From Caldithrix abyssi DSM 13497 (GTDB lineage: Bacteria > Electryoneota > AABM5-125-24 > Hatepunaeales > Hatepunaeaceae), in NCBI GenBank assembly GCA_945865405.1, contig CAMBDS010000002.1:2368-66367 (forward strand): DNA of 64,000 bases, read 5' to 3'. Below are positions 13,445 to 55,674 of the stretch, one piece after another (the first letter of the stretch is position 1; every line of letters begins with the position of its first letter). The position numbers and the translations under genes were made by a program. Under the pieces are notes generated by a model that searched no databases, had not been told where the DNA came from, and was given only the letters and a program-made list of their open reading frames with translations.

Positions 13445-13748
13445 TACGATAAATATAGTGAATTAGCCACTTTTTTCCAATGGAACAACAGCTTAATAGC
13501 AGTATTCCGTTAACCTTGATCTTGCCTTGCCTTTCCAGCGCCGAGTCGCTGTGGTTGGAAGCAGATCAGCCAAATCTTCGCGCTTCACAGCTCCCAATAT
13601 TTAATAAAATTATTTTTTTAATATTTTTTCAATAAAACAAAATTAAAACGGAGACTAAACGCTGCTTTCACTGCCATACCAACGCAGCGGATTAAATTAC
13701 CCCACGTAACTTCAACGATAGAACCTTTAGGACCCAAGGACAACCATT

Positions 13749-15425
13749 ATGCTTTATTCTCGCGTCAGCTCAGGTCTCGATTTTCTCGATGCCGCCACCG
13801 GCGGAATCTATTCCAAGCGTTCCTACCTGCTTCACGGACCATCGCAGTCAGGTCGCACCACCGCTGTCCTCCAATTCCTTCTCGCAGGAATCGAGAACGG
13901 CGAAAATGGCATCCTTATATCGAGTGACCGTATCGAGAACGTGATCCTTAAGGCCGAGACCATCGGCATCCCACTCGAATCGCACCTGATCGCCAACCGC
14001 CTTGTGCTTATGGAATATCCCAAAGAGATCCTGAGCGGCCGCTTCCATTACGGCACCATCGTCCAACTCCTCGGCGAATTCGAGCAGTACATCCAGCATT
14101 ATAACTGCTCGCGACTCGCTTTTGATACGTTGCTGCCACTACTGACGATGGCACGTGAACCCCACCTCGTCAACTATATTTACTCACTGATGAACTCGCT
14201 CGAGGCATTGGGTGTCACCGTGCTCGTCACTACCGGCGAACCGAATAGCCCGACCGCGCAGCGCATCACCCAACTGGTCGAAGACGCCGCAGTCGGCTCG
14301 TTTGCCCTTTCCCGTGTCGATACCCGCCAGGGCATGCAACGCTTCTTCTCCATCAACAAGCTCGTAGATAAATTCACCCCGCCGATGACCTTCCGCATCA
14401 AGCTCGAGTACGGAGGCGGCTTGTTACAGGATATTCAGTCTGAAGACACCGCAAACATCGCTCCGACAACAAACCTGACCATTAACGATATCCCGATCCA
14501 TGTCGGCGTACTTGACGGTGATGATGATAGTCAAATCCAACTCGAAGAGATCTTCTCCAAGGGCAGCCAGGTCTATCCCTTCGAGACCGTCGAAGATCTC
14601 GCGTCACAGATGACCGGACTCGATTGCGACATTTTCTTTCTCAACATCTCACGTCCCGGCGTCCATTGGCAACGCGCCCTGAAAATGCTCCGCGAATCGT
14701 ACCCCAAAATGCCTATCTTTCTTTTCAGCGAAGAACGCAGCCTTCGCTTCACCTACCAACAAGCCAAACTTGCTGGTGCTGACGCTCTCTTTTTCAAGCC
14801 GTTTGTCCCCAACGACATTGTCCGCGCACTCGAGAAGTCACTTCGCTCCTTCGGAACTTTCGAAGATCTTGCCGCTCGCAGAAACCTCTCCTCTGCTTCA
14901 GGCGATCTGCCCGAAGATTTCATGGACGAAGACGGCCTTGGCTCGCGCCGTGAAGCCAACGCTGGCGTCTCACTCCTGCCACCTGCTGCATTTCGTGAGC
15001 TTGTCCATCGACAAATCTGGAAGTCTAACCAGAACAAATCACGCTGCGCTCTCGTCTCGTTCAAGATCGTTTACACTGGTGAACTTCCCAAAACTCCCAA
15101 TCTGCCGCAGGGCTTGGAACTCGTACTGAAAGTCGCCCAGATCATCTCTTCCTGCCTCCGCGGTGTCTCCGACAGTACCTCACGATATATGGACAAGGTT
15201 GTCGTTGTGCTCGAAGATTCCGACCGTAAAGGCGCACAGGCATTCGCCCGTCGCGCTGTAGGTGAGTTGAAGACGGGATTGCTTGAAAAACTGAACATTC
15301 AGGTCGATAAACACATCAATGTCCTCACCGCCATCGGCGTCTATCCGGAAGATGCCGACAACGTCAACGATCTTATCACCGAAGTTACCGATGTCCCCCG
15401 CAACTTCTTGAAGACGGTCGCCTGA
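13749..15425 (+). CDS. KaiC/RecA-like ATPase-fold protein with a receiver-like domain and a degenerate GGDEF-like domain (all three apparently non-canonical)
   Basis: 558 aa. KaiC/RadA-like N-terminus is GGIYSKRSYLLHGPSQSGRTTAVLQF, with Arg in place of the Walker A Lys. The middle REC-like domain has Asn in place of the phospho-acceptor Asp (LDCDIFFLNISRPG); the conserved Ser/Thr (PIFLFSE) and Lys (FFKPF) are retained. The C-terminus is GGDEF-like with the motif degenerated to RYMDKVVVVLED. Confidence 0.65.
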   Translation: MLYSRVSSGLDFLDAATGGIYSKRSYLLHGPSQSGRTTAVLQFLLAGIENGENGILISSDRIENVILKAETIGIPLESHLIANRLVLMEYPKEILSGRFHYGTIVQLLGEFEQYIQHYNCSRLAFDTLLPLLTMAREPHLVNYIYSLMNSLEALGVTVLVTTGEPNSPTAQRITQLVEDAAVGSFALSRVDTRQGMQRFFSINKLVDKFTPPMTFRIKLEYGGGLLQDIQSEDTANIAPTTNLTINDIPIHVGVLDGDDDSQIQLEEIFSKGSQVYPFETVEDLASQMTGLDCDIFFLNISRPGVHWQRALKMLRESYPKMPIFLFSEERSLRFTYQQAKLAGADALFFKPFVPNDIVRALEKSLRSFGTFEDLAARRNLSSASGDLPEDFMDEDGLGSRREANAGVSLLPPAAFRELVHRQIWKSNQNKSRCALVSFKIVYTGELPKTPNLPQGLELVLKVAQIISSCLRGVSDSTSRYMDKVVVVLEDSDRKGAQAFARRAVGELKTGLLEKLNIQVDKHINVLTAIGVYPEDADNVNDLITEVTDVPRNFLKTVA

Positions 15426-18400
15426 GTGAAATCGATTTCGTTAATAGTCGGGTTATTCATCCTCACCCTCTTTGTTGCGCTCCCAGTTGAGGCTCAAAAG
15501 CAGTCCCGTGAGATGCTGAACCGGGCAATGACTCTCGAGGCAGGCGGTGTGACGATGGAAGCTGTCACTACTTATGAGGAGTACCTCAAAAAGGAGCCGG
15601 GTGACGCCTCCGCAAGAGCACGCCTCATTGCATTGCTTCTGAAACTCAACAAGCGTCAGGATGCAATTAATCACATTGTTGTACTAAGAAAGCTCGACCC
15701 TGGCAACGCGAGTTACAGCTCCTTTTACGCAATCGAAGATGACTACCGATTGAACGTCGAAGTGGCTCAGGATGCCGACTTCAAAGCCAAAATCAAAGCT
15801 GGCACCGCTACCGCCGCCACTTACCTTGAGTACTCAAAATTCCTCGCCGGACGAAACGATGAGCCTGGCTCGCGGGAGATGTTGCGCAAATACCTCGAAC
15901 ATAAACCAACCGATTTCGACGCTCAACTCAATCTGGCAAGGCGCTACACATGGGCAAAACAGACCGAGGAAGGTCAACGCCACGCCGTTGCGGCTGTCAA
16001 TCTCCAGCCCGACAACGTCGATGCGAATCATCTGCTTGGCGATCTTCACTACTGGAAGGGTAACGAAGACGCGGCACTGGTCTCTTATCAGCGAGCCTCA
16101 AGAGGTGCACCAAACAACAAAGAGATCAAAGCGAAAGTCAGCAAAATAATCGATGCTCCTGGTTATCGCGAAAGGCGGATGATCGAAGCTCTTGCCAAGG
16201 AACCCGATACCAAGGTCAGTCTCGACCTCGCAAAATACTACCTTGATCACCATCGTGAATGGGAAGCCGATTCCCTCGTCAGAAGACGGCTCGTCAAAGT
16301 CCCCGAAGATCAGGACGCCGCCAAACTGTTAGGAGAAATCGAAAAAAGGCGTCAGGAACGATACGCCGTCCAGATCCGGGAATACAAAGCCAGGCTATCC
16401 GTTGCTCCCCGCGACACAACGCTACTTCTCGCTCTGGCAAGGTACTACGTCTCGGTTCCTACGCTCGATTCAGCACTTGAGATTTACGACCGCTTCATGA
16501 AGATCTATCCATCCAATTACGATGTCCGGATGGAAAGAGCCAAGGTACTGATGTGGAACGGACGCTCTGGTGAAGCCTCTGCAGAGTTTCGCGTTATCAG
16601 CATCGCTCAGCCTGACAACATCGAAGCATCACTTTCTCTTGCCGATTGCCTCATCATGAACGATGTCAACGTCGAGGAAGCTGAGAATATCTATCGGCGC
16701 GAGTTGACCGTACACCCCGATTCCATAAGACCGAGAATCGGCTATGCTGATGCTCTCCGCAAAGGGGGTCGCTACGACGAAGCTCAGGAACAGTACAAGG
16801 CTGTCCTTGCCAAAGACCCCGAAAATGAACGAGCGATTATCGGCCTCGAATGGATCAACCGCGATTTAACGCCACTATTGCGCAGACTCGAAAAGAATGT
16901 TGCCGAAAATCCTCGTGACGCCAAAGCTCGCCGCAGACTCGCCGGTCTCTACTATGATGCAAAACGTTACTGGGATGCTGAGCAACAAGTTAATCTGTTG
17001 TTGGCAGAAAACCCTGAAGACAAGCAATTACAATCTTTTCTCGCTGACATCAAAGCTCGGGCGAAAGCATTCCGCACCGCTGGACTTGATAGCCTGCAAC
17101 GGGACGTCGCCGCTCAACCGGAGAACAGTCAGCTTCGCTTAAGACTCGCTGATGAACTCGCTGGAGTAGGTCGTAACGACGAAGCGATTATCCAGTACAA
17201 CATGCTTCTGCAAGCTGATCCTGAAAACACATTCATAAGCATGAAGATTGTCGAAATTTACCTCGCTCAGGGCAAAATGAAGGAAGCGTCGGTCATTCTT
17301 CAACAGGTTGCCGATGACAATCCGGGCAACTTCGAATATCGATTTAAACTCGCCCAGGTTCTCTCATGGATGGGAGATTACGAAGGTGCAATGCGCGAAT
17401 ACGATGCCGCAATGCGCATCAACCCCAATTCGATTGAATGTCAGGTAGCCTTGGCCGACATCACAAAGTGGCGCGGAGATCCCTACACTGCCTACGACAT
17501 GTATAGCCGCATACTGGCAATGAATCCGAGTAACCCCACTGCACGTAAGTCAATTGACGAGCTAAAAGGGACTCTTATCAGAGGTGTTCAAGGGTCACTT
17601 CAGGAAGCTTCCGATAGCGAACATTTCAAAATGCGTGAGACTCGCGCCTCATTATCGGTAAATATTTCGCTCCGAATGGGGGCTCAAGGCGGATTTGGCA
17701 AAATCCATTTCGAACAGTCTGACGCCGTAACTCTTGCCCTCTACTCTGAAACGGGTTGGTTCCTCTTCGGGCAGATCGATTACCGCATCGACCCCCTGAC
17801 ACGTGCTTCCGGACAGATCAAATACTACACTTTTGCCTTAAAAAAGAGCCAGGGACTTCGCTTTGAAATCGAGCATAACTTCAAAGACTTCCCCAATCTC
17901 GACGGAATGATCGGCACAGCGTACTACACATCACAAGAAGCTGTTCTCGATCTCGCTTCCACAAGAAATCTGTTGTCTTGGACTGACAATCTGAAGTCGG
18001 AAAAATTAGGGGCAGTTGTCAACTACATTTATTCACCGAAATGGGTTGGTGAAGGCGAAGTTGCACTGATTGCAGTCTCCGACGGAAACACCCGCACCGA
18101 CATCTGGGCAGAATGGCGACGGGTCTTCAGCAAGTTGATCCAAATTGGCGCCCGCTATGAAAACATCAGCGCAAAGCGAGTTGCGGCTCAATACTGGTCA
18201 CCGAGTGCCTATCAAACTATCAGCCTTGTGGCGCAAATGCAGAATAGCTTCAATAAATGGAGTTATGAAGTTCACGGTGGTGTCGGTCGAGTTCTCAGTA
18301 CCAGTGATGCTTTGCGAAATTTCAGCGCTCAAATTCAGTGGCGCATTGCTCCGGCAATCTATTTCTCGGCCGGGATTCTCGACCTTGCAACCACTCGCGT

Positions 18401-18455
18401 TGATGGTCAGTATCGTTATCGCGGTGTCTCAGCTTCATTAACATTGGAGCGATAG
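15426..18455 (+). CDS. TPR-repeat protein with C-terminal outer-membrane beta-barrel (PgaA/BcsC-like exopolysaccharide export porin)
   Basis: 1009 aa. GTG start abuts the upstream stop as TGAGTG. Signal peptide is MKSISLIVGLFILTLFVALPVEAQ. About 650 aa are TPR-like helical repeats. The last ~300 aa show an alternating hydrophobic beta-strand pattern typical of a porin. Confidence 0.6.
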   Translation: MKSISLIVGLFILTLFVALPVEAQKQSREMLNRAMTLEAGGVTMEAVTTYEEYLKKEPGDASARARLIALLLKLNKRQDAINHIVVLRKLDPGNASYSSFYAIEDDYRLNVEVAQDADFKAKIKAGTATAATYLEYSKFLAGRNDEPGSREMLRKYLEHKPTDFDAQLNLARRYTWAKQTEEGQRHAVAAVNLQPDNVDANHLLGDLHYWKGNEDAALVSYQRASRGAPNNKEIKAKVSKIIDAPGYRERRMIEALAKEPDTKVSLDLAKYYLDHHREWEADSLVRRRLVKVPEDQDAAKLLGEIEKRRQERYAVQIREYKARLSVAPRDTTLLLALARYYVSVPTLDSALEIYDRFMKIYPSNYDVRMERAKVLMWNGRSGEASAEFRVISIAQPDNIEASLSLADCLIMNDVNVEEAENIYRRELTVHPDSIRPRIGYADALRKGGRYDEAQEQYKAVLAKDPENERAIIGLEWINRDLTPLLRRLEKNVAENPRDAKARRRLAGLYYDAKRYWDAEQQVNLLLAENPEDKQLQSFLADIKARAKAFRTAGLDSLQRDVAAQPENSQLRLRLADELAGVGRNDEAIIQYNMLLQADPENTFISMKIVEIYLAQGKMKEASVILQQVADDNPGNFEYRFKLAQVLSWMGDYEGAMREYDAAMRINPNSIECQVALADITKWRGDPYTAYDMYSRILAMNPSNPTARKSIDELKGTLIRGVQGSLQEASDSEHFKMRETRASLSVNISLRMGAQGGFGKIHFEQSDAVTLALYSETGWFLFGQIDYRIDPLTRASGQIKYYTFALKKSQGLRFEIEHNFKDFPNLDGMIGTAYYTSQEAVLDLASTRNLLSWTDNLKSEKLGAVVNYIYSPKWVGEGEVALIAVSDGNTRTDIWAEWRRVFSKLIQIGARYENISAKRVAAQYWSPSAYQTISLVAQMQNSFNKWSYEVHGGVGRVLSTSDALRNFSAQIQWRIAPAIYFSAGILDLATTRVDGQYRYRGVSASLTLER

Positions 18456-20333
18456 GTGCCTTCGAATTTACCAAAAGACTATACTGCAAACGGTCAACCC
18501 CACTCAATGGAGCAAATCTGGGGGTGGACTGATGGTCAAACGCCGGACGAAGAGACAATAGATTCGCACGACCAGTTTGGATCTCAAACACCTCAGCAAA
18601 TCGACGGCATGGGAGATCCTAATCACCATGATAAATTCCCTGAACCGGGCGAGTTTTCCGCGGACGACGATTTCGATTTTTGGGCAGGATATGACACAAC
18701 TCCATCAAACGGATTCCAACCGGCAAATACCAATCTTAATGACGTATCGATACCGGATGATGATGAGTTAACCATTGCTGAAGTATCAATGATCGCTGCA
18801 ACAATGCCAATTGTTTCAACTATTAGCGAGACTTCCACTACCCCGCCACCTCCGCCCGCACCTCGAAAGGTGGCGCGGAAGGCTGAAGACTATCAGGAAC
18901 CTAAAATCCCTTGGCTATCCCAGAAAAAACGTGGCGCCAAGCAATGGGGTTACGGCTTCATCATCGCGATTTTGCTCACTATTTTCGGATCTATTTCCAT
19001 CGGTGTTTATCTCGTCTTGTTGAACTCGAAAGTCTCGATCCCGACCGTTTTCGTGAACGTCTCGATTGTTTCGTTGCTCTTGTTCCTTTTTCTTCTTGTC
19101 GCTCGTTACATCGGCCTGATTTACATGTCCTTCCTCCACCTTAATCGTAGTAAGGAAGAGGAATTCGACGAGGTCAGCCAGCAACTGAAATGTTCAATCC
19201 TCGTCCCGGCTTACAACGAAGGCAAAGGCATCGAAGACTCCATTATCTCAATGCTCGAGATGGATTATGACAACTTTGAGGTCATCGTCATCAATGATGG
19301 ATCGAAGGATGACACCCTTGAGGTCGCACGCAAGCATGAGGGCTGGCACGGTAACGTTCTGGTCAAGGTTATCTCCCAGAAGAACATGGGCAAGTCCAAC
19401 GCCTTGAACTACGGCACCAGCGTCGCCACCGGCGACATCATCCTCTGCGTAGATGGCGACTCCAAGCTCCATCCGCAAACCTTGAAGCTTGGCATGAGGC
19501 ACTTTCAGGATCCCAAGCTCGGCTCGGTTGCCGGTAACGTCAAGGTCATCAATCGTCGCAATATGATGACCAATTTGCAAGCCCTTGAGTATATTGAAGG
19601 CCTTAATCTCGTCCGAAGAGCACAAGCATTGATGCAAGCCGTCAATATTGTCCCAGGTCCTTGTGGATTCTTCAGAAGATCAGTAATTTTGGAGGTTGGA
19701 GGCTGGGACGACGACACCTATGCTGAGGACTGCGACCTCACCTTGAAAGTCCTCACAAGAGGCTACAAAATCGACTACGAGCCGGGCGCGATCAGCTACA
19801 CCGAAGCCCCCGAAAAGCTTCTGCAGCTCCTGAAGCAGCGCTACCGCTGGACTCGCGGCATCCTTCAGGCGATGCGCAAGAATGCCATCCACCTAATCAA
19901 CCCCATTGCCGGCTGGCGAGTCGTCCTCGTCATGTGGCAGATGGTCTTCGAGAGCGTCCTCTGGCCCCTGATGAACGTCGTCGCGAACCTGCTGTTCCTC
20001 CTTGTCGCATTCATTTTCGGAATGTCGCCGCTGATCGTCTTCTGGTGGGTGCAGTTGACGATCCTCGACACCATCGCCGCCATGCACACCGTCGCCATCG
20101 AACGTGAGTCTATCAAGCTCGTCCCTTACGCCGTCCTTTACCGAGCATTCTTCATCCAGCTCGTCGACGTCGCAAAATTGCTCGCAACCTTCGAGGAACT
20201 TATGGGCGTCGAGATGTCCTGGGGACACATGGAGCGTCAAGGTCGCCTCAGCGGCACCGTCGCCCAAGGCGCAACCGTCATTCACCGTACGCATATTACC
20301 ACCACCACCACTACCACCACTCTGGAGACCTAA
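18456..20333 (+). CDS. family-2 processive beta-glycosyltransferase (PgaC/IcaA/NodC/chitin-cellulose synthase-like)
   Basis: 625 aa. GT2 motifs are VPAYNEG...VIVINDGSKDDT, CVDGDS (DxD), YAEDCDLT (TED), QRYRWTRG (QxxRW) and flanking transmembrane helices. There is an unusual ~160-aa acidic, Pro-rich N-terminal extension. The true start is uncertain (GTG at 18456, or internal ATGs). C-terminal poly-Thr run. Confidence 0.8.
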   Translation: MPSNLPKDYTANGQPHSMEQIWGWTDGQTPDEETIDSHDQFGSQTPQQIDGMGDPNHHDKFPEPGEFSADDDFDFWAGYDTTPSNGFQPANTNLNDVSIPDDDELTIAEVSMIAATMPIVSTISETSTTPPPPPAPRKVARKAEDYQEPKIPWLSQKKRGAKQWGYGFIIAILLTIFGSISIGVYLVLLNSKVSIPTVFVNVSIVSLLLFLFLLVARYIGLIYMSFLHLNRSKEEEFDEVSQQLKCSILVPAYNEGKGIEDSIISMLEMDYDNFEVIVINDGSKDDTLEVARKHEGWHGNVLVKVISQKNMGKSNALNYGTSVATGDIILCVDGDSKLHPQTLKLGMRHFQDPKLGSVAGNVKVINRRNMMTNLQALEYIEGLNLVRRAQALMQAVNIVPGPCGFFRRSVILEVGGWDDDTYAEDCDLTLKVLTRGYKIDYEPGAISYTEAPEKLLQLLKQRYRWTRGILQAMRKNAIHLINPIAGWRVVLVMWQMVFESVLWPLMNVVANLLFLLVAFIFGMSPLIVFWWVQLTILDTIAAMHTVAIERESIKLVPYAVLYRAFFIQLVDVAKLLATFEELMGVEMSWGHMERQGRLSGTVAQGATVIHRTHITTTTTTTTLET

Positions 20334-21067: not shown

Positions 21068-21070
21068 CCG

Positions 21071-23854
21071 ATGCGATTCTCTTTGACAACACTATCGCTT
21101 GTGCTGTTGGCCGTTTCTACGGCAACTGCACAGGTTGTGCTTGTCAAACCTCAGACAACCGCAAATTTTGTCGCTCCCGACAATCCCGCGAAGCAGATCG
21201 ATGCCTGGACGGCTAACCTTTTGATCTTAATGCGTGAAGCCGGCATCGACCCTGTCGTTGAGAATGAGTCTTTCCTCACCTCTAACACTCTGCCTTCGAC
21301 CATCATCCTCTTCCACGCCGAATACCTTTCCGACGAGCAGGTCAAAGCGTTACAGGAGCATCTGAACCAGGGCAACAACCTCTGGATCACATCGGGAACC
21401 GGTTACCGCACCGCGACCGGCGAAGTCCGCGGTTGGGGTTTCCTACAGGAGGTTCTCGGCGGGACTATCGAACCGACAACACTCCAAAGCGGCACGGCGG
21501 TTTCGCTCCAAATGCGTTACGGAAGACCGGGAAGCTCCTCCCTCCCCCCGGGCTACCGTTGGAGATTAGCTCTTTCAGAAACACCACTATCCCTCAAAAC
21601 AACCAACTCAGATGACATCGTCGGCTACTGGGCAAGAGACGCCTACCAGCTCGAACCTGCCGATTCTATCCCCCGTCAGGCGGGGTTCATATCTCGCACA
21701 ACCTTATCAGGCGGCAGAGTTGTCTGGATTGGAGCAGGTATGGAAGGTCTTCACCTTGATCTCGTCAATCGCGATATGTCGCTCAAAGTGCTGACAGAAA
21801 CGCTCGGCTGGCTGAAGGGTGAAGGAATTCCCTCCGTCGAAGCCTGGCCCTCCGCTCAAAAAAGTGCCGTCTTGATACATGGCGATATCGAAGACAGATT
21901 CGAATATATCCCTCGATTAACCACTATTTTCAAAGGTCAGGACGTCCCGGTCACTTACAACATTCTCACATCGGAAGCCGCTAAATTCCCCAAGGCTCTC
22001 GATGAAATATTAAAAACTCGCGCCGAATTGTCCGTTCACGGAGATGACCACAGCGATTTCGCTGGTCAACCTGTACAGACTCAGATTGACCGCCTGATGT
22101 CCTGCGCTTCATTTATTGCACTCTATGGTCCTCGTCCCACCGCGTTTCGACCCACTTCGCTAAGCTATGATGACAACACCCTTCGTGCAGCAAAAAATGT
22201 CGGCTACACAAGCGTTCTCGCCTATAACAAACCCGACCGCGACTACCCGATTTACAACGTCGATGAACGTTCTCTCGAATCAGGGCTCGTATTTTACCCC
22301 AAAAGTGAACTCGACGATTACGATTTGGTCGAAAAAATACCGATACCAACTGAGGCAGGAAAAGCTCGCAATTTTATCGGCGACTTCAACCGCATCAATG
22401 ACCTGCACGGGCTCTATAAACTCAATTTCCACAGCCAATATCTCGCAACCGAAGAGTTACCTAAAGCGGTTGAAAAAACCCTTATTGAAATAAAAAGCCG
22501 TAACGATGTCTGGATCACCGACACCCAATCTATTTCGGCGTGGCTGAAACTCCGCAGCAGGTTGCTTCTGCAGACTAATTCAAACCAATCGGTCGTCAAC
22601 CTTACTCTAACCAATACATCATCTGCTCCTGCACGTAACGTAATTCTACGAATTTTGCCCCCGCAAAACGTCCCCGCCGAGCTCCTTGTCCCGCGAAACG
22701 TGAGCGAGAGCATCCAATACGATGTCCGCGACGGCGTTCTCTATGCCAGCATCCCAAATCTGAAGCCCGGAGCGATCTTCAAAATGGAACTCGCGGCTGG
22801 TACCGGCCCCGCAATGAACCTCTTCAATAAAAATATGTTAATCACCGGCTTCAAAGCATTCGCCGCTATCGGAGCCATATTCATTCTCTGGTTCGTTATG
22901 TATCTTGCATTTTCAGGCAAGAAAGCCAGGCCTGGTCGTTCACAGCGAACTTTGCCTGACCTCACTACAGAAGAGGAGATCCTCTATCGTAAACTCGGTA
23001 TCAAAAATAGTGATTTGGATTCTACCCAGACTAACATCTCCAATGGCGATTCAGGTTCACAACGCATCGATTTGGTGCACAATATGCCGATAGCATCCGC
23101 TCCTGCCGGGAATTTTCCAATGATCCCTGATCCAAATCAAATTAAGTCTGTTGCGAATAGAAACCAAAACACCTCAAGAGCTGTCCCTTCGATTATCGGC
23201 ACAATCACCGGCACGGGCGATTTTAATGCTCCCACACTTTCGAGTAACGCTGTAGGCACTCACCCAAACGGATTTTCGCGCTTCAACCGCAATTCCAAGG
23301 TTCCGGCACTCCCAATGGTTTTTAAACCGTTAACCTCAACAGGTGACAAACCGGTATCACTTCAACCGCGTCGCAAAGTAGCGCCTCCCCAACTGGAGAT
23401 GTCCCCGATTCCGATCTCTGAACAAATTCAAGCTGACAATCCGCAACAATTATCAGTCAGTACCAATAGCATCTCCGAAGCAGCTCCCCCGCAAAAAGCA
23501 CCTGCTCCTCGGCCAAAGCCCGAGTCGCTGTTGCCTGTTGTTGGAATTCCACCGCAAAGACCAGTGTCTAACGCCCTCAATCCGGCTCAAAAATCAGCCG
23601 CATCATCGCCCAACAGGCCAATGGACAATCGCAACTCCAATACTTTCCAGTCACCTTCCGGATTGCGGACAACTGCCAATTTACCGAAACCAAAACGGCA
23701 GGGAAACGTTGACAACGCTCCGTCAAATAGCTCACAGTCGCAGTCCCAAGGTCAGCCACAGTCCACACCTGACCCACAGGGAATGGTAAGAACTTCAGTG
23801 GAGATGTTTCGCAAACAGAAAGCTAAATCGAACAACGTCGAGGAATGGCGATAA
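21071..23854 (+). CDS. secreted polysaccharide deacetylase-like (CE4/NodB-like) protein with a transmembrane helix and long Ser/Pro/Gln-rich tail
   Basis: 927 aa. Signal peptide is MRFSLTTLSLVLLAVSTATAQ. CE4-like motifs are LIHGDIED, SVHGDDHSDF and FRPTSLSYDD. A transmembrane helix follows (ITGFKAFAAIGAIFILWFVMYLAF), then a low-complexity tail. Confidence 0.45.
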   Translation: MRFSLTTLSLVLLAVSTATAQVVLVKPQTTANFVAPDNPAKQIDAWTANLLILMREAGIDPVVENESFLTSNTLPSTIILFHAEYLSDEQVKALQEHLNQGNNLWITSGTGYRTATGEVRGWGFLQEVLGGTIEPTTLQSGTAVSLQMRYGRPGSSSLPPGYRWRLALSETPLSLKTTNSDDIVGYWARDAYQLEPADSIPRQAGFISRTTLSGGRVVWIGAGMEGLHLDLVNRDMSLKVLTETLGWLKGEGIPSVEAWPSAQKSAVLIHGDIEDRFEYIPRLTTIFKGQDVPVTYNILTSEAAKFPKALDEILKTRAELSVHGDDHSDFAGQPVQTQIDRLMSCASFIALYGPRPTAFRPTSLSYDDNTLRAAKNVGYTSVLAYNKPDRDYPIYNVDERSLESGLVFYPKSELDDYDLVEKIPIPTEAGKARNFIGDFNRINDLHGLYKLNFHSQYLATEELPKAVEKTLIEIKSRNDVWITDTQSISAWLKLRSRLLLQTNSNQSVVNLTLTNTSSAPARNVILRILPPQNVPAELLVPRNVSESIQYDVRDGVLYASIPNLKPGAIFKMELAAGTGPAMNLFNKNMLITGFKAFAAIGAIFILWFVMYLAFSGKKARPGRSQRTLPDLTTEEEILYRKLGIKNSDLDSTQTNISNGDSGSQRIDLVHNMPIASAPAGNFPMIPDPNQIKSVANRNQNTSRAVPSIIGTITGTGDFNAPTLSSNAVGTHPNGFSRFNRNSKVPALPMVFKPLTSTGDKPVSLQPRRKVAPPQLEMSPIPISEQIQADNPQQLSVSTNSISEAAPPQKAPAPRPKPESLLPVVGIPPQRPVSNALNPAQKSAASSPNRPMDNRNSNTFQSPSGLRTTANLPKPKRQGNVDNAPSNSSQSQSQGQPQSTPDPQGMVRTSVEMFRKQKAKSNNVEEWR

Positions 23855-26125
23855 TTGTCAGCCCAATCTGGAAATATACCTCCCGGTAAATTGCCGCCAA
23901 AGCCTGTAGCGCCGGCTAAAAAGGCATCTAAAACCGTTAAAAGCGAAACAAAAAAAACTACAGTTACGATTCCTGTTATCTCGAAGTTATTTCATCGTAA
24001 GAGCCAAAGACCATCAGCTCCGAATTCTGCCCCCCTCGTCGTAGCCCCCCCTTCGGGCACTATTGTCAAACCCAAAGACACCCGCATCGAACGGCTCAAG
24101 AAGCAAGTCGGAGGCTTCCTCTTCCAACTTGTGACGCTCGCTCTGTTTCTGACCGCCTTCGGCTGGTGGGGCTACACGCAGGTGATGAAACAGGTTCTCG
24201 GCCGCTTCGATGTCCTCGACTGGGAATCTGCCGGAGCTTCGCTATACGGTGCTCCAAACGTTCTGTTGATCGATCCGTTACGCACTGAGGAGTACCTTCG
24301 CCCGGACACAGCGCGGCACGATACGATCTGGCCGTACAGCGAACGAATCGACGACTGGCCCCTGTTGGACACCCTTTGGTACGCGCCGGGAATTCCGCAC
24401 CACAGTCGTGACGGGTTTCAGGCATGGGATCTGATGGGTACCGATGACTTCAAACAAGCTGGCCTCGCCGATCCCTGGAAGGAATTGCTTTTCCGCAAGA
24501 AAATCTCGTTCACGCTCGAGCAAGAGCCTGCCCTGACTGCTATACCGGACGGTGTCAATATGGTGATTTTACCCGGAACACTCCTCTTGTCAGCTCAGGA
24601 GCGAAAGGGCATCAAGGACTTTCTCGTCGAAGGCGGCAAGCTACTTTGCTGTTGGTCACCCGGCTGTCGTGACGAAAATGGCAACTGGACGGGATACACT
24701 TTTTTGGAGCAAATTGTCGGGGGCAGTCTGGCAGGTCTTGTTCAGGACCCCACCGGCGGTGAAACAATCCTCCTAAACGGGAGCGGCCCAATAACGGCGA
24801 TGGTCGCCCCCGGCGCGCATCTCGAATTCTTCACCTGGAACGGCAATATCGAGATGAACATCCTTGAGCCTCGCACCACCGCCGACGCATGGCAGTTTGA
24901 GTCTTACTGGCTCAACGCCGGAAAGACCGCTGGAGCTACCCAGCCGGCAATGGCTGCGCATGGAACCTATGTGGCAGGTAAATTTGTCTGGTTCTCTTTC
25001 ACGCCTGATGCGATGCAGCCTCACAAGGATAATAACGTTATCATGGAGAAACTCGCCCTCAATGCCATCTACTGGCTTGCTGGCAAACCTCTCGTCGATA
25101 TCAGTGTCTGGCCGCCCGGCTACTCGGCAGGAGGATCACTGGCACTGACCGGACAGGGAACCCCTTCGGCTATCAACGAACTCCAAAATTCGATTGACAA
25201 GAGCAGAAAGCCGCTCGATCTGATCCTCGATCCTGACAATATCCCGGAGAACATCGAATTTCTTGGTGATGGTTGGGGCGACGTCATCATCGGTTCTTCA
25301 GATACAGCTCTCTTTAACAGCCTTAATCCCCGCGATATATTCGATTGGCTCGAGACAAGCGCTGTCCGTCTCGAAAATATCACAGGCCGCCGCCCCAAAG
25401 GGCTCTTTCCACCTGATTGGAGTTACAGTGAATTCGCTGCCATAGGCGCGGCAACCGAGCAGATGCGCTTTGTCATGTGTTCGCCAAGCCCTCGTTTCTA
25501 CGGCCCGACTGAAAGCCTCCTAAGGCCTCATGGCTGGTGGATCTTTTCCGATAAAGTTCAGCTTGCCACTCTGCCAAAGTGTCAGGTATCATCAGATGAA
25601 TGGGTAGATTACGGGAAGGTAAAGGGAGCGGCGGGAATCTATTCCGCTATGGGCAACAATATGCGACATATTCGTAAATTTGGCGGTATGTACATCGGCA
25701 TCGTCGATCCGACAACCCTTGAGGCGGAAAACGCACTGAACTTACCCGCACAGCTGAGTGCGCGAATGGACTCGCTCGGCTTCTGGCGCGGTTCGATTGG
25801 CGAGGTCATGGATCGCTTTAGTGGATGGAGGGGGTTGAGAGAGGGGACAATGGAGATCACACCCAAACGTCTTCAGCTTCAGCTCTCAAACGAAAGCGAT
25901 GTCGATATGAAAAACGTCAAACTTGAACTCTATTTCACCCCGGACGTTGTCTCTTCATTCGAAGTCACTTCCGAAGTCATGGGACTCCGCGCCGCAGATG
26001 TCAATTGGAACAAGCGTTCCGGGCTCTTTAGTTTTGCAATACCTGAGCTAACAGCCGGGATGAACGCCGTAATCTACATCGACGCAACAACAGGCGAATC
26101 AAAACCGGAAATTATAAACAGATGA
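23855..26125 (+). CDS. membrane-anchored hypothetical protein (possible polysaccharide-modifying enzyme)
   Basis: 756 aa. TTG start directly after the upstream TAA. Basic N-terminus, then one transmembrane helix (FLFQLVTLALFLTAFGWWGY) and a large periplasmic part. The match to deacetylase-like or amidotransferase-like folds is weak. Confidence 0.45.
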   Translation: MSAQSGNIPPGKLPPKPVAPAKKASKTVKSETKKTTVTIPVISKLFHRKSQRPSAPNSAPLVVAPPSGTIVKPKDTRIERLKKQVGGFLFQLVTLALFLTAFGWWGYTQVMKQVLGRFDVLDWESAGASLYGAPNVLLIDPLRTEEYLRPDTARHDTIWPYSERIDDWPLLDTLWYAPGIPHHSRDGFQAWDLMGTDDFKQAGLADPWKELLFRKKISFTLEQEPALTAIPDGVNMVILPGTLLLSAQERKGIKDFLVEGGKLLCCWSPGCRDENGNWTGYTFLEQIVGGSLAGLVQDPTGGETILLNGSGPITAMVAPGAHLEFFTWNGNIEMNILEPRTTADAWQFESYWLNAGKTAGATQPAMAAHGTYVAGKFVWFSFTPDAMQPHKDNNVIMEKLALNAIYWLAGKPLVDISVWPPGYSAGGSLALTGQGTPSAINELQNSIDKSRKPLDLILDPDNIPENIEFLGDGWGDVIIGSSDTALFNSLNPRDIFDWLETSAVRLENITGRRPKGLFPPDWSYSEFAAIGAATEQMRFVMCSPSPRFYGPTESLLRPHGWWIFSDKVQLATLPKCQVSSDEWVDYGKVKGAAGIYSAMGNNMRHIRKFGGMYIGIVDPTTLEAENALNLPAQLSARMDSLGFWRGSIGEVMDRFSGWRGLREGTMEITPKRLQLQLSNESDVDMKNVKLELYFTPDVVSSFEVTSEVMGLRAADVNWNKRSGLFSFAIPELTAGMNAVIYIDATTGESKPEIINR

Positions 26126-27492
26126 AGATAATTACAAAAAAGCCGTTTAGGTATCCGCTGGCTTACGCCCTCGTCTGCCAGCATCAAACCCAAGCTGCGG
26201 GTAGCCCGCCGAGCCTGGCGGGTAGCCCGGCGAGCCTGGCGGGTAGCCCGGCGAGCTTTGCTCGGCGGGTCTTTCCACTTACTCTCTTTTTCACTTTGCT
26301 CATCTTTTCGTCTATTTCTATCATTGGTTGCACGACAGAAACTGTCTCTCCTCGCTACAACAACATCCGTCCTGAGATTATCCTGTTTGAAACCCTTCCC
26401 GACGATTCCATCGAAGTCCAGGATACACTGGTTCTCGAGTGTGAAGCCGATGATCCCGAGGGCCAACCGCTAAGCTATTTCTGGCATGCAGAAAGCGGCA
26501 CAATTCTCTCTGATTCTACCGTAACGACACGATGGGTCGCTCCTCGAGTTCCCGGTAGCTATTGGATAAATTTAACAGTAAGTGATCCTTTTTCAGATAC
26601 AACCGCTTCTCGTTTGGCAATAGTACTACCCCGAGGTGCGACAAATCGTGCACCTGAAATTGTGCAGATTACTACAGTCCCTGATACAGTAACTGCAGGT
26701 GAAATAGTAAACTGCGCAGTACAGGCGACAGACGAAGAGGAAGATGCCCTCAGCTACATCTGGACAGCACAGGCGGGCGAATTCGACCGTTCGTTTGGCT
26801 CCCAAGTTCACTGGGCGGCACCTGCTGAGTTAGGCGAGTATTATATTAAAGTTGCCGTTACCGACGGCAACCACTCCATTTCTGATTCACTTTCAGTTTT
26901 GGTTGCGGCGGACACAGTAACTCTTTATGATGCTGATTTTACTATAGATCAAGTAAGTGGAGCATGGGGGAGTATAGGCTTGTTGGCAGGGTTGGGGGAT
27001 AGTGAGGGTATTAACCAAATAGAATGGGATTCTACAACTCACGCAATGTCAGTTACTTCCAAAACAACTTATGGCACTTATGGATTCAGATTAATAGGCC
27101 GTAATTTCGGCCCCGGAACGTTTTACTGCACCGTGAAAGTCCTTAACGGTGAATATCATAGGATTGCTTTTGTACCAAAACTGATCGACAGGCAAAACTA
27201 TGTTATATTTGGTATCGATCCTTATGTAGGAAGCTGGCAGGTCTTGCGATGTACTGCAGGAACAATGCAATACCTTTCGGAAGGCTGGAACACTTTCGAC
27301 TTGAATAACCCGCTAAGGTTTGAATATAAAGAATCCAATAACCGCGCCACCGCATCTATAAATGGTCAAATGCTTTGGTCTGGCGCAGTTGCACCCGAAT
27401 TTCAGAGAAGTGCTCCGATGGGAGTTGCACTATACGGCACCAACCAATCAGGCCCCGCTCTCTTCGATAACTTCATGATCTCAACACCCTAA
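26122..27492 (+). CDS. lipoprotein with two Ig/PKD-like repeats and a C-terminal beta-sandwich domain
   Basis: 456 aa. ATG overlaps the upstream stop as ATGA. Lipobox-like SISIIGC. Two ~90-aa repeats are PEIILFETLPDD...YFWHAESG and PEIVQITTVPD...YIWTAQAG. The 5' coding region contains a REP-like hairpin and a 3x21-nt tandem repeat. Confidence 0.55.
   Translation: MKIITKKPFRYPLAYALVCQHQTQAAGSPPSLAGSPASLAGSPASFARRVFPLTLFFTLLIFSSISIIGCTTETVSPRYNNIRPEIILFETLPDDSIEVQDTLVLECEADDPEGQPLSYFWHAESGTILSDSTVTTRWVAPRVPGSYWINLTVSDPFSDTTASRLAIVLPRGATNRAPEIVQITTVPDTVTAGEIVNCAVQATDEEEDALSYIWTAQAGEFDRSFGSQVHWAAPAELGEYYIKVAVTDGNHSISDSLSVLVAADTVTLYDADFTIDQVSGAWGSIGLLAGLGDSEGINQIEWDSTTHAMSVTSKTTYGTYGFRLIGRNFGPGTFYCTVKVLNGEYHRIAFVPKLIDRQNYVIFGIDPYVGSWQVLRCTAGTMQYLSEGWNTFDLNNPLRFEYKESNNRATASINGQMLWSGAVAPEFQRSAPMGVALYGTNQSGPALFDNFMISTP
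26155..26185. repeat. REP-like hairpin, copy 4, inside annotated 5' end of lipoprotein ORF
   Basis: ccgctggcttacgccctcgtctgccagcatc is the near-exact reverse complement of gatgctggcatacgagggcgtctgccagcgg at 45754-45784. Confidence 0.7.
26197..26259. repeat. 3 x 21-nt tandem repeat (GCGGGTAGCCCGSCGAGCCTG) in 5' coding region of lipoprotein gene
   Basis: Encodes AGSPPSL AGSPASL AGSPASF. On the opposite strand it gives RRATRQA repeats. Confidence 0.85.
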
Positions 27493-55598: not shown

Positions 55599-55674
55599 AG
55601 TTGTGATAATATCGAAAGGACTATTTGAAGTAAATGGAATATTGGGATCGATGCACGATCACAAACTGTCTGAC

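What the first reader, a model, noticed from the sequence alone, without database searches (positions are those of the whole stretch)
13749..27492. Seven-gene, translationally coupled synthase-dependent exopolysaccharide operon headed by a triple-pseudoenzyme regulator
Seven plus-strand genes are joined by overlapping or abutting start and stop codons (TGAGTG, TAGGTG, TAATG, TAAccgATG, TAATTG, ATGA). In order they are:
- a KaiC-like / receiver-like / GGDEF-like protein;
- a TPR + C-terminal beta-barrel protein (PgaA/BcsC-like);
- a GT2 processive synthase with DxD, TED and QxxRW motifs (PgaC/IcaA/NodC-like);
- a Pro/Gln-rich single-pass membrane protein (possible PgaD/IcaD analogue);
- a CE4-like secreted protein with a transmembrane helix and low-complexity tail;
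- a second large membrane-anchored protein;
- a lipoprotein with Ig-like repeats.

This resembles Pga/Bcs/Pel-type secretion machinery. The accessory proteins and the regulator are non-standard, so the polymer and its regulation are probably uncharacterised.
Basis: partly seen in the sequence, partly recalled or inferred. Interest (0 to 1): 0.7.

Follow-up and report, generated by a model that had tools for sequence, protein, structure and literature searches.

The report
Pga-like exopolysaccharide operon with BcsE-like regulator
This is a real, conserved seven-gene operon of Calditrichota bacteria that very probably makes and exports a GlcNAc-type biofilm polysaccharide using a PgaC-like synthase and a PgaA-like outer-membrane pore, controlled by a three-domain sensor built like E. 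coli's cellulose regulator BcsE but not detectably related to it.

Summary
Seven + strand ORFs (13749-27492) have exactly the stated junctions, and the gene order recurs in more than 15 Calditrichota or related loci at 45-58% identity.

**What the genes are**
- g3 is a PgaC-type processive GT2 (hhalign 99.9%, 33% identity).
- The g2 C-terminus folds confidently (pLDDT 93) into a 16-stranded barrel.
- g5 is a membrane-anchored CE4-like protein. g6 is its paralogue and lacks the His-His motif.
- g7 is a PKD lipoprotein.
- g1 is KaiC/RecA-like + receiver + GGDEF-like. All three catalytic motifs are altered in the whole family: Walker K→R, phospho-Asp→Asn, GGDEF→MDK.

**What is new here**
- g1's three-domain plan is the known plan of E. 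coli BcsE, though no sequence homology is detectable.
- g4 is a single-pass protein with a nearly invariant helix. It resembles BcsF in topology, not PgaD.
- A divergent SARP/AfsR-like regulator lies upstream, with conserved 11-bp-phased AAAC(G) repeats ahead of g1.

**Verdict**
New variant of a known kind, of moderate interest. The polymer, the g1 ligand and co-transcription are untested.

The parts
10322..13444 (-). g0: divergent AfsR/SARP-like regulator (weak OmpR-type wHTH + BTAD + AAA_16 + TPR). Candidate transcriptional activator of the operon.
   Evidence: Pfam gives BTAD 7.6e-15, AAA_16 3.8e-21 and TPR. The N-terminal 150 aa give Trans_reg_C at E 1.3e-4, 22.4 bits, below the 26.2-bit cutoff. 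The gene sits in the same divergent position in L003/L017, L008 and L009 at 47-82% identity, and is absent next to g1 in the other loci.
13646..13683 (+). Three phased direct repeats AAAC(G) at 13646, 13657 and 13680, spaced 11 and 23 bp, at -103, -92 and -69 from the g1 ATG. Putative activator operator overlapping the promoter.
   Evidence: The pattern AAACN{7,8}AAACN{18,21}MAAC has 2 matches in the window against 0.18 expected. It occurs once, directly upstream of g1, in L003/L017, L005, L006, L008, L009, L010, L014, L016, L026 and L029. Binding by g0 is inferred, not shown.
13749..15425 (+). g1: cytosolic three-domain regulator. KaiC/RecA-like domain (aa 7-227, nt 13767-14429), degenerate receiver (aa 249-368, nt 14493-14852), degenerate GGDEF (aa 410-555, nt 14976-15413).
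15426..18455 (+). g2: outer-membrane exporter. Signal peptide (aa 1-23), TPR superhelix (about aa 24-700), 16-stranded beta-barrel (aa 717-1009, nt 17574-18452).
   Evidence: TPR families and hhalign to the BcsC TPR region at 98.2%. AF2 of aa 700-1009 gives pLDDT 93.3, pTM 0.84 and 16 strands. Foldseek top hit is the PgaA barrel 4y25 (E 3.3e-9, TM 0.67/0.72); PelB TM 0.66; BcsC TM 0.60-0.62. Weak OMP-barrel Pfam hits occur in orthologues. Homologues have aromatic C-termini.
18456..20333 (+). g3: PgaC-like processive GT2 synthase. Low-complexity N-terminal region (aa 1-165), 2 N-terminal TM helices, GT-A domain (aa 246-480, nt 19191-19895) with DGD, AED and QRYRW motifs, C-terminal TM helices. 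No PilZ domain.
   Evidence: NCBIfam PgaC_IcaA 2.9e-65, 220.8 bits (cutoff 422.3); NodC 111 bits; CelA 66.6 bits. hhalign to E. coli PgaC 99.9%, E 3.9e-36, 33% identity over 297 columns with motifs aligned. PDB sequence hits include hyaluronan and cellulose synthases across the TM region. TM helices.
20333..21067 (+). g4: single-pass inner-membrane subunit. Nearly invariant N-terminal TM helix (aa 1-36, nt 20333-20440), then a hypervariable Gln/Pro-rich cytosolic tail.
   Evidence: The N-terminus MDIVPILSTIILISTLITLIVAIASY..FRIKEKKK is 60-82% identical in most of the 18 loci (36-42% in L001, L010/L027 and L024), while the tails are unalignable. No similarity to PgaD or BcsF. A g4-like gene also follows g1 in L001/L015, where no synthase is adjacent.
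21071..23854 (+). g5: type I membrane protein. Signal peptide, GATase1/GIFT-like domain, CE4 deacetylase-like domain (aa about 262-480, nt 21854-22510), beta-sandwich, TM helix (aa 596-614), 310-aa low-complexity cytosolic tail.
   Evidence: Pfam Polysacc_deac_1 3.8e-11. PDB chitin/xylan deacetylases 7y51 at 6.2e-6 and 7fbw at 1.4e-5. The motifs HGD, H-G-D-D-H, F-R-P and L-N-F-H are kept in the window's clade but lost in L004, L005, L006, L012 and L029. Topology.
23855..26125 (+). g6: type II membrane protein and paralogue of g5. Lys/Pro-rich cytosolic N-terminus, TM helix (aa 85-103), strongly conserved GATase1/GIFT-like domain, CE4-like region without the His-His motif, beta-sandwich.
   Evidence: BLASTP of g5 against g6 gives 6e-10 over about 550 aa. 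The A3 alignment shows conservation concentrated in aa 88-420 and no H-x3-H. The A3 profile hits GH42 domain B (4ucf, 6.8e-5) and weakly IFT52. Weak Pfam hit to ABC_transp_aux.
26122..27492 (+). g7: lipoprotein with two PKD/Ig-like domains and an unassigned C-terminal domain (aa about 270-456).
   Evidence: PKD 8e-11 with two stretches. The lipobox Cys is conserved in all orthologues. g7 is present after g6 in L022, L023, L024, L026, L027 and L029. The C-terminal domain has no significant Pfam or PDB match.

Best explanation
The window carries a lineage-specific (Calditrichota and relatives) synthase-dependent exopolysaccharide system of the PNAG (Pga) type.

**Shown**
- g3 is a membrane-embedded processive GT2 closest to PgaC/IcaA.
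- g2 is a TPR protein ending in a 16-stranded PgaA-like barrel.
- g5 carries a CE4 deacetylase-like domain.
- The seven genes are syntenic across divergent genomes.

**Inferred mechanism**
- g3 polymerises a UDP-GlcNAc-derived chain and threads it across the inner membrane. The ultra-conserved helix of g4 packs against it as an obligate small subunit.
- The periplasmic domains of g5 and g6 are both tethered to the inner membrane, and one lacks the catalytic motif. Together they receive the chain, and in this clade g5 partially de-N-acetylates it.
- The TPR region of g2 hands the chain to the barrel for export.
- The lipoprotein g7 assists at the outer membrane or cell surface.

**Regulation (inferred)**
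- Transcription is driven from a promoter overlapped by three helically phased AAAC(G) repeats. The likely activator is the SARP/AfsR-like g0.
- After translation, cytosolic g1 acts like BcsE. Its RecA/KaiC-like domain is a natural Walker K→R, Glu→Asp form, so it probably binds nucleotide with little turnover. It would dock to a cytosolic tail, most likely g4's, in the way BcsF recruits BcsE.
- The non-phosphorylatable receiver and the GGDEF-like domain, with its invariant RGxxD...R-x-MDK patch, would sense a nucleotide second messenger, most likely c-di-GMP. This would switch the synthase on or stabilise the assembly. g3 has no PilZ domain and the operon has no PgaD.
For: **Gene order and junctions:**

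**Synteny:** found in L003-L006, L008-L012, L014, L016, L019, L023-L027, L029 and L031.

**g3:**

**g2 barrel:**

**g5 and g6:**

**g7 lipobox and PKD:**

**g1 domains and family-wide motif changes:**

**BcsE/BcsF precedent**
- BcsE is a degenerate NTPase + REC* + GGDEF* protein and leads its operon.
- It is recruited by the tail of the single-pass protein BcsF.
- It binds c-di-GMP through the GGDEF* I-site (PMC7439463; PMC11470070).

**g4:** helix conservation, and linkage to g1 even without an adjacent synthase.

**Repeat array and g0:**

**Known variation in pga operons:** operons lacking pgaD or the PgaB hydrolase domain are documented (PMC7112194).
Against: - No experiment or transcript data exist for any of this.
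- g3 scores below NCBI's PgaC_IcaA equivalog cutoff (220.8 against 422.3 bits), so the linkage and the sugar are not established.
- The canonical CE4 Asp-Asp is not evident in g5, and the His-His motif is lost in several orthologous lineages. L031 appears to lack g5 altogether. Deacetylation is therefore not a universal feature.
- The I-site-like motif is RxxxD, not the canonical RxxD five residues before GGDEF, so c-di-GMP binding is unproven.
- g4 has no similarity to BcsF.
- g0 is adjacent in only about three distinct lineages, whereas the repeats are nearly universal.
- In one complete genome (L001/L015) g1 is not next to any synthase.
Confidence: 0.7

Rival explanations
1. It is simply an orthologous pgaABCD operon. 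It makes canonical beta-1,6 PNAG by the E. coli mechanism, with PgaCD-type direct c-di-GMP activation, and the extra genes are peripheral.
For: - g3 is 33% identical to E. coli PgaC (hhalign 99.9%).
- The best structural match of the g2 barrel is PgaA.
- A CE4 gene follows the synthase.
Against: - g3 is below the PgaC_IcaA equivalog cutoff.
- There is no PgaD: g4 has one helix and no similarity.
- g5 has no GH153 hydrolase domain, is not a lipoprotein, and gives hhalign probability 0.1% against PgaB.
- g1, g4, g6 and g7 are as conserved in synteny as the core genes.
Confidence: 0.12
2. The machinery is as described, but the polymer is not PNAG. It could be a chitin/chitosan-like beta-1,4 GlcNAc chain or a mixed or hexosamine-uronic polymer, since PgaC, NodC, chitin synthases and hyaluronan synthases are close GT2 relatives.
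For: - NodC is the second-best family at 111 bits, and there is a Chitin_synth_2 hit.
- PDB sequence hits to hyaluronan synthases span aa 306-590.
- The best CE4 matches for g5 are chitin/xylan deacetylases.
Against: - PgaC_IcaA scores twice as high as NodC.
- The exporter barrel is most like PgaA.
- Nothing here can discriminate the linkage.
Confidence: 0.2
3. g1 is not a c-di-GMP receptor. It is an ATP-driven or ATP-gated KaiC/ArlH-like switch, working by autophosphorylation or an oligomeric state change. Its REC-like and GGDEF-like domains serve only as protein-interaction scaffolds, or bind GTP or another ligand.
For: - The P-loop geometry G-x4-G-R-T and the Walker B Asp126 are invariant across the family, unlike the eroded P-loop of BcsE (PMC7439463).
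- The closest folds are KaiC and the archaellum regulator FlaH/ArlH.
- The I-site Arg is displaced by one residue.
Against: - Walker Lys→Arg and catalytic Glu→Asp normally cripple hydrolysis. This rests on established knowledge of RecA K72R, not on a test here.
- The most conserved patch of the C-terminal half lies exactly at the I-site and A-site positions of GGDEF domains.
- The operon has no other c-di-GMP-sensing module.
Confidence: 0.3
4. The genes are adjacent by chance or belong to several unrelated functions, so they are not one system.
For: No transcript data exist. The start codons of g3 and g6 are uncertain.
Against: The same order is conserved in more than 15 loci at 45-58% g1 identity. 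There are no intergenic gaps, and there are fewer terminator-like sites than expected by chance.
Confidence: 0.02

Closest known systems
E. coli pgaABCD (PNAG synthesis and export)
   Same: - A PgaC-like GT2 synthase: 33% identity, same DxD, xED and QxxRW motifs, TM helices on both sides of the GT domain.
- A TPR protein with a 16-stranded barrel exporter whose best structural match is PgaA.
- A CE4-type modifying protein encoded downstream.
   Different: - Gene order differs.
- There is no PgaD. Instead there is a single-pass protein with a long Gln/Pro-rich tail.
- The CE4 protein is anchored to the inner membrane by a C-terminal helix. It lacks the GH153 domain, has an N-terminal GATase1/GIFT-like domain, and is duplicated as a paralogue (g6) lacking the His-His motif.
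- A PKD lipoprotein and a cytosolic three-domain regulator are added.
- g3 is below the equivalog score.
E. coli BcsE-BcsF (type II cellulose secretion regulators)
   Same: - g1 has the same three-part plan as BcsE: RecA/KaiC-like NTPase-like domain, then a non-phosphorylatable receiver, then a non-catalytic GGDEF domain.
- g1 leads its operon, as BcsE does.
- g4 has the topology of BcsF: one N-terminal TM helix and a cytosolic tail.
   Different: - No sequence similarity to BcsE or BcsF (hhalign probabilities 0.6% and 0.7%).
- The domains of g1 are still recognisable by the canonical Pfam models, and its P-loop is nearly intact (K→R). BcsE's P-loop is eroded, and its GGDEF* domain lacks the P-loop and the alpha-1 helix.
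- The I-site is RGxxD, not RxGD/RxxD.
- There are no BcsR/BcsQ partners.
- The synthase is PgaC-type and has no PilZ domain.
- g4 is 244 aa against 63 aa for BcsF.
Pseudomonas PelD and PelB (Pel system)
   Same: - Both use a degenerate GGDEF domain as the dedicated regulator of a synthase-dependent EPS system.
- Both have a TPR-plus-barrel exporter. The PelB barrel matches at TM 0.66.
- Both deacetylate a hexosamine polymer.
   Different: - PelD is membrane-bound with a GAF domain. It has no RecA-like or receiver domain.
- Pel uses a GT4 (PelF), not a GT2 synthase.
- There is no PelC-type lipoprotein ring.
KaiC-family single-domain regulators (archaeal FlaH/ArlH, PH0284)
   Different: They carry a Walker A Lys and are not fused to REC or GGDEF domains. 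They belong to a different cellular system.

Membership tests
Synthase-dependent EPS secretion systems (Pga/Bcs/Pel/Alg class) | Inner-membrane processive glycosyltransferase that couples polymerisation to translocation | tested here: met
   g3 matches PgaC_IcaA at 2.9e-65 and E. coli PgaC by hhalign at 99.9%. It has DGD, AED and QRYRW motifs with TM helices on both sides. Activity was not assayed.
Synthase-dependent EPS secretion systems (Pga/Bcs/Pel/Alg class) | TPR-containing periplasmic scaffold fused or coupled to an outer-membrane beta-barrel porin | tested here: met
   The AF2 barrel has pLDDT 93.3 and 16 strands. The highest TM-scores are to PgaA, PelB and BcsC (TM 0.60-0.72), with OmpG hits interleaved at lower TM (0.45-0.48). 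TPR families are found in aa 24-700.
Synthase-dependent EPS secretion systems (Pga/Bcs/Pel/Alg class) | Post-translational control by a c-di-GMP receptor | tested here: inconclusive
   g1 has a degenerate GGDEF domain with invariant R471-G-x-x-D475 at the I-site position, but the Arg is shifted by one residue. There is no PilZ domain and no PgaD. Binding cannot be tested with these tools.
Pga (PNAG) system, PgaC/IcaA equivalog | Score above NCBIfam TIGR03937 cutoff (422.3 bits) | tested here: not met
   The score is 220.8 bits. PgaC_IcaA is the closest family, but g3 is not an equivalog.
Pga (PNAG) system | PgaD: a small two-helix inner-membrane partner that binds c-di-GMP together with PgaC | tested here: not met
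   g4 has a single TM helix. hhalign against PgaD gives probability 0.1%.
Pga (PNAG) system | PgaB: a lipoprotein with an N-terminal CE4 deacetylase and a C-terminal GH153 hydrolase domain | tested here: not met
   g5 has a CE4-like domain. hhalign against PgaB gives probability 0.1%. No hydrolase domain was detected. g5 has a signal peptide plus a C-terminal TM anchor rather than a lipobox.
Pga (PNAG) system | Product is beta-1,6-linked poly-N-acetylglucosamine | not testable with these tools
   This needs polymer isolation and linkage analysis.
BcsE (CBP_BcsE / GIL) family | Three-part architecture: degenerate RecA-like NTPase, degenerate REC, degenerate GGDEF | tested here: met
   Supported. 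The architecture of BcsE is taken from PMC7439463 and PMC11470070.
BcsE (CBP_BcsE / GIL) family | Detectable sequence homology to BcsE | tested here: not met
BcsE (CBP_BcsE / GIL) family | Canonical I-site RxxD (RxGD) that binds c-di-GMP | tested here: inconclusive
   The motif present is R-G-x-x-D, which is RxxxD. Binding was not testable.
BcsE (CBP_BcsE / GIL) family | Genomic association with bcsA/bcsB, bcsR/bcsQ and bcsF/bcsG | tested here: not met
   The neighbours are a PgaC-like synthase, a PgaA-like porin and CE4-like proteins. No Bcs-specific genes are present.
CE4 metal-dependent polysaccharide deacetylases (g5) | Asp-His-His metal triad plus catalytic Asp and His (motifs TFDD, H[ST]xxH, RxPY, LxH) | tested here: inconclusive
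   H-G-D-D-H, F-R-P and L-N-F-H are present in the window's clade. The first motif reads H-G-D-I-E-D instead of TFDD. The motifs are lost in L004, L005, L006, L012 and L029. g6 lacks the H-x3-H motif; its other CE4 motifs were not examined.
SARP/AfsR-type regulators (g0) | OmpR-type winged helix + BTAD (+ NB-ARC/AAA + TPR in large SARPs), acting on 11-bp-phased direct repeats near -35 | tested here: inconclusive
   BTAD, AAA_16 and TPR are clear. The wHTH hit is below cutoff at 22.4 against 26.2 bits. Phased repeats are present and conserved. Binding was not testable.

The most novel reading that the evidence does not exclude
g1 and g4 form a BcsE/BcsF-type cytosolic sensor and membrane tether attached to a PgaC-type synthase rather than a cellulose synthase. 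The module either evolved independently or diverged very anciently.

The plan 'degenerate RecA-like + REC* + GGDEF* protein docked on the tail of a single-pass peptide' would then be a general, modular solution for gating synthase-dependent polysaccharide secretion.

In this version the RecA-like domain is a natural Walker K→R nucleotide-binding switch, so the machine would integrate ATP status with a cyclic-dinucleotide signal.
Probability: 0.3. Interest if true: 0.65.

Novelty: new variant of a known kind. Interest (0 to 1): 0.5.

Why it matters
- Synthase-dependent polysaccharide systems (cellulose, PNAG, Pel, alginate) are the best-understood biofilm matrix machines, but almost all knowledge comes from Proteobacteria.
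- This cluster shows how an uncultured FCB-group lineage rebuilt the same machine. The synthase and the porin are kept. The PgaD/PilZ-type c-di-GMP switch is replaced by a BcsE-like three-domain sensor and a single-pass subunit with a nearly invariant helix. The periplasmic modifying enzyme is replaced by a tethered pair of paralogues, one with and one without the CE4 His-His motif.
- If the BcsE/BcsF analogy holds, the regulatory logic described for E. coli cellulose secretion would extend beyond enterobacteria.
- The g1 family is small and sharply defined, with invariant altered motifs, so mutagenesis and ligand-binding tests are straightforward to design.

Tried and rejected
- **hhalign against E. 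coli proteins.** The g1 profile against BcsE, g4 against PgaD and BcsF, and g5 and g6 against PgaB all gave probability of 1% or less. Homology claims to these proteins were dropped.
- **hhalign of the barrel profile.** Against the E. coli PgaA and BcsC barrel sequences it was inconclusive (0.5-1%, then 37% with a deeper profile). The question was settled by structure prediction instead.
- **Word-indexed homologue searches on the barrel.** Two searches returned only three close fragments, so those searches were largely wasted. The exhaustive HMMER search gave 23 representatives, which made the AF2 alignment possible.
- **Home-made amphipathic-strand counter.** It found only 8 of the 16 strands and was discarded.
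- **phmmer against PDB.** Neither the GGDEF-like domain alone nor g7 returned anything useful.
- **Rfam scan of the g1 leader.** It gave only a chance-level hit (Cyano-2, E 0.37), so no riboswitch is claimed.
- **Literature searches.** Searches for Calditrichota EPS, KaiC-like + GGDEF, and Caldithrix + PNAG found no prior description.
- **Other system types considered and rejected.** A Wzx/Wzy or ABC-dependent capsule locus was rejected because there is no flippase, polymerase or ABC transporter. A Pel system was rejected because there is no GT4 or PelD-type GAF domain.

Full report
**1. Observation**

ORF listing confirms seven + strand ORFs: 13749-15425 (g1, 558 aa), 15426-18455 (g2, 1009 aa), 18456-20333 (g3, 625 aa), 20333-21067 (g4, 244 aa), 21071-23854 (g5, 927 aa), 23855-26125 (g6, 756 aa) and 26122-27492 (g7, 456 aa). 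The junctions read TGAGTG, TAGGTG, TAATG, TAAccgATG, TAATTG and ATGA, exactly as reported.

The lister always takes the first start codon after a stop, so abutment is partly built in. Independent support for the starts is as follows.
- g2: signal peptide MKSISLIVGLFILTLFVALPVEAQ.
- g4: N-terminus conserved in 18 loci.
- g5: signal peptide.
- g7: only start codon upstream of a conserved lipobox.
- g3 and g6: alternative in-frame starts exist, so these are unverified.

Terminator-like sites within the cluster are fewer than in shuffles (7 against 16.8). The cluster is bounded by a 304-nt divergent intergenic region upstream and a convergent DUF58 gene 4 nt downstream.

**2. Source organism and conservation**

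Several window proteins carry T9SS sorting domains. g1 is 92% identical to a protein of an 'uncultured Caldithrix sp.' MAG.

The g1 family is small.
- 34 full-length relatives turned up in a 5.8-billion-protein collection. Those with names are labelled Calditrichota or Candidatus Hatepunaea meridiana.
- 12 loci were found among 185,579 species-representative genomes.

tblastn of the window proteins against all fetched loci shows the order g1-g2-g3-g4-g5-g6, with g7 wherever the contig reaches. This holds in L003/L017, L004/L011, L005, L006, L008-L010, L012, L014, L016, L019, L023-L027 and L029, at only 46-58% g1 identity for most.

There are exceptions.
- L031 has no detectable g5.
- In L001/L002 (4.34-Mb record) and L015 (4.24-Mb chromosome), g1 is followed by a 186-aa protein, a g4-like protein and nucleotide-sugar genes, but no synthase.

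This is a conserved gene cluster, not a chance arrangement.

**3. The core machine**

*g3 (synthase).*
- Its best curated family is PgaC_IcaA (2.9e-65, 220.8 bits, below the 422.3-bit equivalog cutoff). NodC follows at 111 bits and cellulose synthase at 66.6 bits.
- A profile of g3 orthologues aligns to E. coli PgaC with 99.9% probability and 33% identity over 297 columns. VDGDS aligns with IDGDA, AEDCD with TEDID, and QRYRW with QRLRW.
- It has two TM helices before the GT domain and more after it. PDB sequence matches to hyaluronan and cellulose synthases run through that C-terminal region.
- It therefore does not group with non-polymerising GT2 enzymes. There is no PilZ domain.

*g2 (exporter).*
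- It has a signal peptide and about 680 aa of TPR. hhalign to the BcsC TPR region gives 98.2%.
- The last 310 aa belong to a tiny family, with 23 representatives among 1.84 billion proteins.
- With a 17-sequence alignment, AlphaFold2 gave pLDDT 93.3, pTM 0.84 and 16 beta-strands.
- Foldseek against the PDB puts the PgaA barrel first (4y25, E 3.3e-9, TM 0.67/0.72). PelB follows at TM 0.66 and BcsC at 0.60-0.62.
- Orthologues give weak hits to four outer-membrane barrel Pfam families. Their C-termini end in alternating, aromatic beta-signal-like sequences.

**4. Accessory proteins**

*g5.*
- It consists of a signal peptide, an N-terminal domain with weak GATase1-clan hits, a CE4 domain (Pfam 3.8e-11; PDB chitin/xylan deacetylases at 6e-6), a beta-sandwich, one TM helix (aa 596-614) and a 310-aa Pro/Ser/Asn-rich tail.
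- Alignment of orthologues shows HGD, H-G-D-D-H, F-R-P and L-N-F-H in the window's clade.
- These motifs are lost in L004, L005, L006, L012 and L029.

*g6.*
- It is a distant paralogue of g5 (BLASTP 6e-10 over about 550 aa) with the opposite anchoring: an N-terminal Lys/Pro-rich tail followed by a TM helix.
- Its best-conserved part is the N-terminal domain. That domain matches domain B of GH42 beta-galactosidases, a GATase1-like fold (6.8e-5), and weakly matches IFT52.
- It has no H-x3-H motif.

*g7.* It has a conserved lipobox Cys, two PKD domains and an unassigned C-terminal domain.

*g4.*
- Its first 36 residues (MDIVPILSTIILISTLITLIVAIASY..FRIKEKKK) are 60-82% identical in most loci, more conserved than any other protein of the cluster.
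- The remainder (25% Gln, 20% Pro) is unalignable.
- The positive charges after the helix place the tail in the cytoplasm. This topology is inferred.
- It resembles neither PgaD nor BcsF in sequence.

**5. The regulator g1**

Across 28 family members at 44-92% identity:
- Walker A is G-P-S-Q-S-G-R36-T. R36 aligns with the Walker Lys of RecA (GPESSGKT), and D60 aligns with RecA's catalytic Glu96. Walker B Asp126 is invariant.
- The receiver keeps the Lys-Pro of beta-5, but has Asn (Ser in three members) where the phospho-Asp should be.
- The GGDEF signature is replaced by invariant R479-x-M481-D482-K483. Invariant R471-G472-x-x-D475 lies upstream.

Using the established rule that the I-site RxxD lies five residues before GG(D/E)EF, D475 is in register, but the Arg is one residue further away (RxxxD).

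From established knowledge, RecA K72R binds ATP but barely hydrolyses it. I therefore infer a nucleotide-binding, low-turnover switch rather than a dead domain. This is not tested.

**6. Comparison with known systems**

The literature confirms that E. coli BcsE is a degenerate RecA/KaiC-like NTPase + REC* + GGDEF* protein.
- It leads the bcsEFG operon.
- It binds c-di-GMP through the GGDEF* I-site.
- It is recruited to the membrane when the cytosolic tail of the single-pass peptide BcsF adds a strand to the NTPase-like sheet (PMC7439463; PMC11470070).

g1 and g4 reproduce this plan: same domain order, leader position, and a single-pass partner with a cytosolic tail. g1 stays next to a g4-like gene even in the genome where no synthase is adjacent.

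Membership in the BcsE family is nevertheless not supported.
- hhalign probability is 0.6%.
- No BcsE Pfam or NCBIfam hit is returned.
- The genomic partners are different.

g1 works, I propose, like BcsE, but it is not shown to be a BcsE. Relative to pgaABCD, the PgaC-like and PgaA-like features are met. PgaD, the two-domain lipoprotein PgaB and the equivalog score are not. A published survey of synthase-dependent operons already notes pga variants lacking pgaD or the PgaB hydrolase domain, with unknown regulation. It has no Calditrichota entries (PMC7112194).

**7.

Aligning the 220 nt upstream of g1 from 16 loci reveals three direct AAAC(G) repeats spaced 11 and 22-24 bp apart. A TAnnTTG-like box follows.

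In the window the repeats are at 13646, 13657 and 13680. The pattern has 2 matches in the window against 0.18 expected. It occurs exactly once, immediately upstream of g1, in ten further distinct loci.

The divergent gene g0 (10322-13444, - strand) has BTAD, AAA_16 and TPR domains, plus a sub-threshold OmpR-type winged helix. That is the architecture of large SARP/AfsR regulators, which are known to bind 11-bp-phased direct repeats overlapping the -35 region (own knowledge). g0 is adjacent only in L003/L017, L008 and L009, so the assignment is tentative.

No Rfam element was found in the leader.

**8. Verdict**

The finding is real, and its interpretation is essentially right. It is a lineage-restricted variant of the PNAG-type synthase-dependent secretion system, with the following distinctive features:
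- a BcsE-like but apparently non-homologous sensor;
- a BcsF-like small subunit with a nearly invariant helix;
- a tethered pair of CE4-like paralogues, g5 with and g6 without the His-His motif;
- a PKD lipoprotein;
- probably a SARP-type activator.

Polymer identity, the g1 ligand and co-transcription remain to be tested. I rate it a new variant of a known kind, with interest about 0.5.

Noticed in passing
window 13646-13683 (and about 13690-13700): There are three helically phased AAAC(G) direct repeats followed by a TAnnTTG-like box. They are conserved upstream of g1 in more than 10 divergent loci. They probably form an activator operator overlapping an FCB-type promoter.
   Followed up: yes
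window 48235-48274 (+): This is the only other window match to the phased-repeat pattern. It lies in the gap between the ORF ending at 47674 and the stop of the MalQ-GlgB fusion gene. It may be chance: 3 of 100 shuffles reach 2 matches.
   Followed up: no
window 18456-18950, 20450-21067, 22916-23854, 23855-24106: All four inner-membrane proteins of the operon carry long low-complexity tails rich in Pro, Gln, Ser, Asn or Lys: g3 N-terminus, g4 tail, g5 tail and g6 N-terminus. All are predicted to be cytosolic. The tails are present but unalignable and variable in length in orthologues. Their role is unknown; they could be a scaffold for g1.
   Followed up: partly
L004, L005, L006, L012, L029 (g5 orthologues); L031 4991-6464: The CE4 His-His and LxH motifs of g5 are lost in several lineages, and L031 seems to lack g5 entirely. 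g6 is always kept. The structural role of the pair may matter more than deacetylation.
   Followed up: partly
L001 10001-13368 (= L002, L015): In L001/L002 (4.34-Mb record) and L015 (4.24-Mb chromosome), g1 (48% identity) is followed by a 186-aa protein and a 311-aa protein with a g4-like N-terminal helix. Next come Polysacc_synt_2, DegT and methyltransferase genes, with no g2 or g3 nearby. The AAAC repeats are still upstream.
   Followed up: partly
window 15426-15512: A public gene call for the identical protein (P0044, 980 aa) starts 29 codons downstream, at the ATG. That start removes the signal peptide. The GTG start at 15426 fits an outer-membrane protein better.
   Followed up: partly
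window 26122-26265: g7 has an unusual 48-aa extension before its lipoprotein signal peptide. It contains a short repeat (AGSPPSLAGSPASLAGSPASFA). Orthologues differ here, and most are about 40 aa shorter.
   Followed up: partly
window 48298-57732 (-): This is an alpha-glucan (GlgE-pathway) cluster with fused enzymes. One protein combines GH77 4-alpha-glucanotransferase with a branching-enzyme-like CBM48/alpha-amylase (1316 aa). Another combines a trehalose-synthase-like alpha-amylase with a maltokinase N-cap (1117 aa). A GlgE maltosyltransferase follows.
   Followed up: no
window 6468-10499 (-) and 57941-63460 (+): There are two giant T9SS-sorted proteins. One combines a CotH kinase domain with lamin-tail and chitobiase-C domains. 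The other is a 1839-aa gingipain-like C25 peptidase.
   Followed up: no
window 14889-14969 (g1 aa 381-407): The disordered linker between the REC-like and GGDEF-like domains contains a nearly invariant short motif, L-P-E-D-F. It may be a docking peptide.
   Followed up: no
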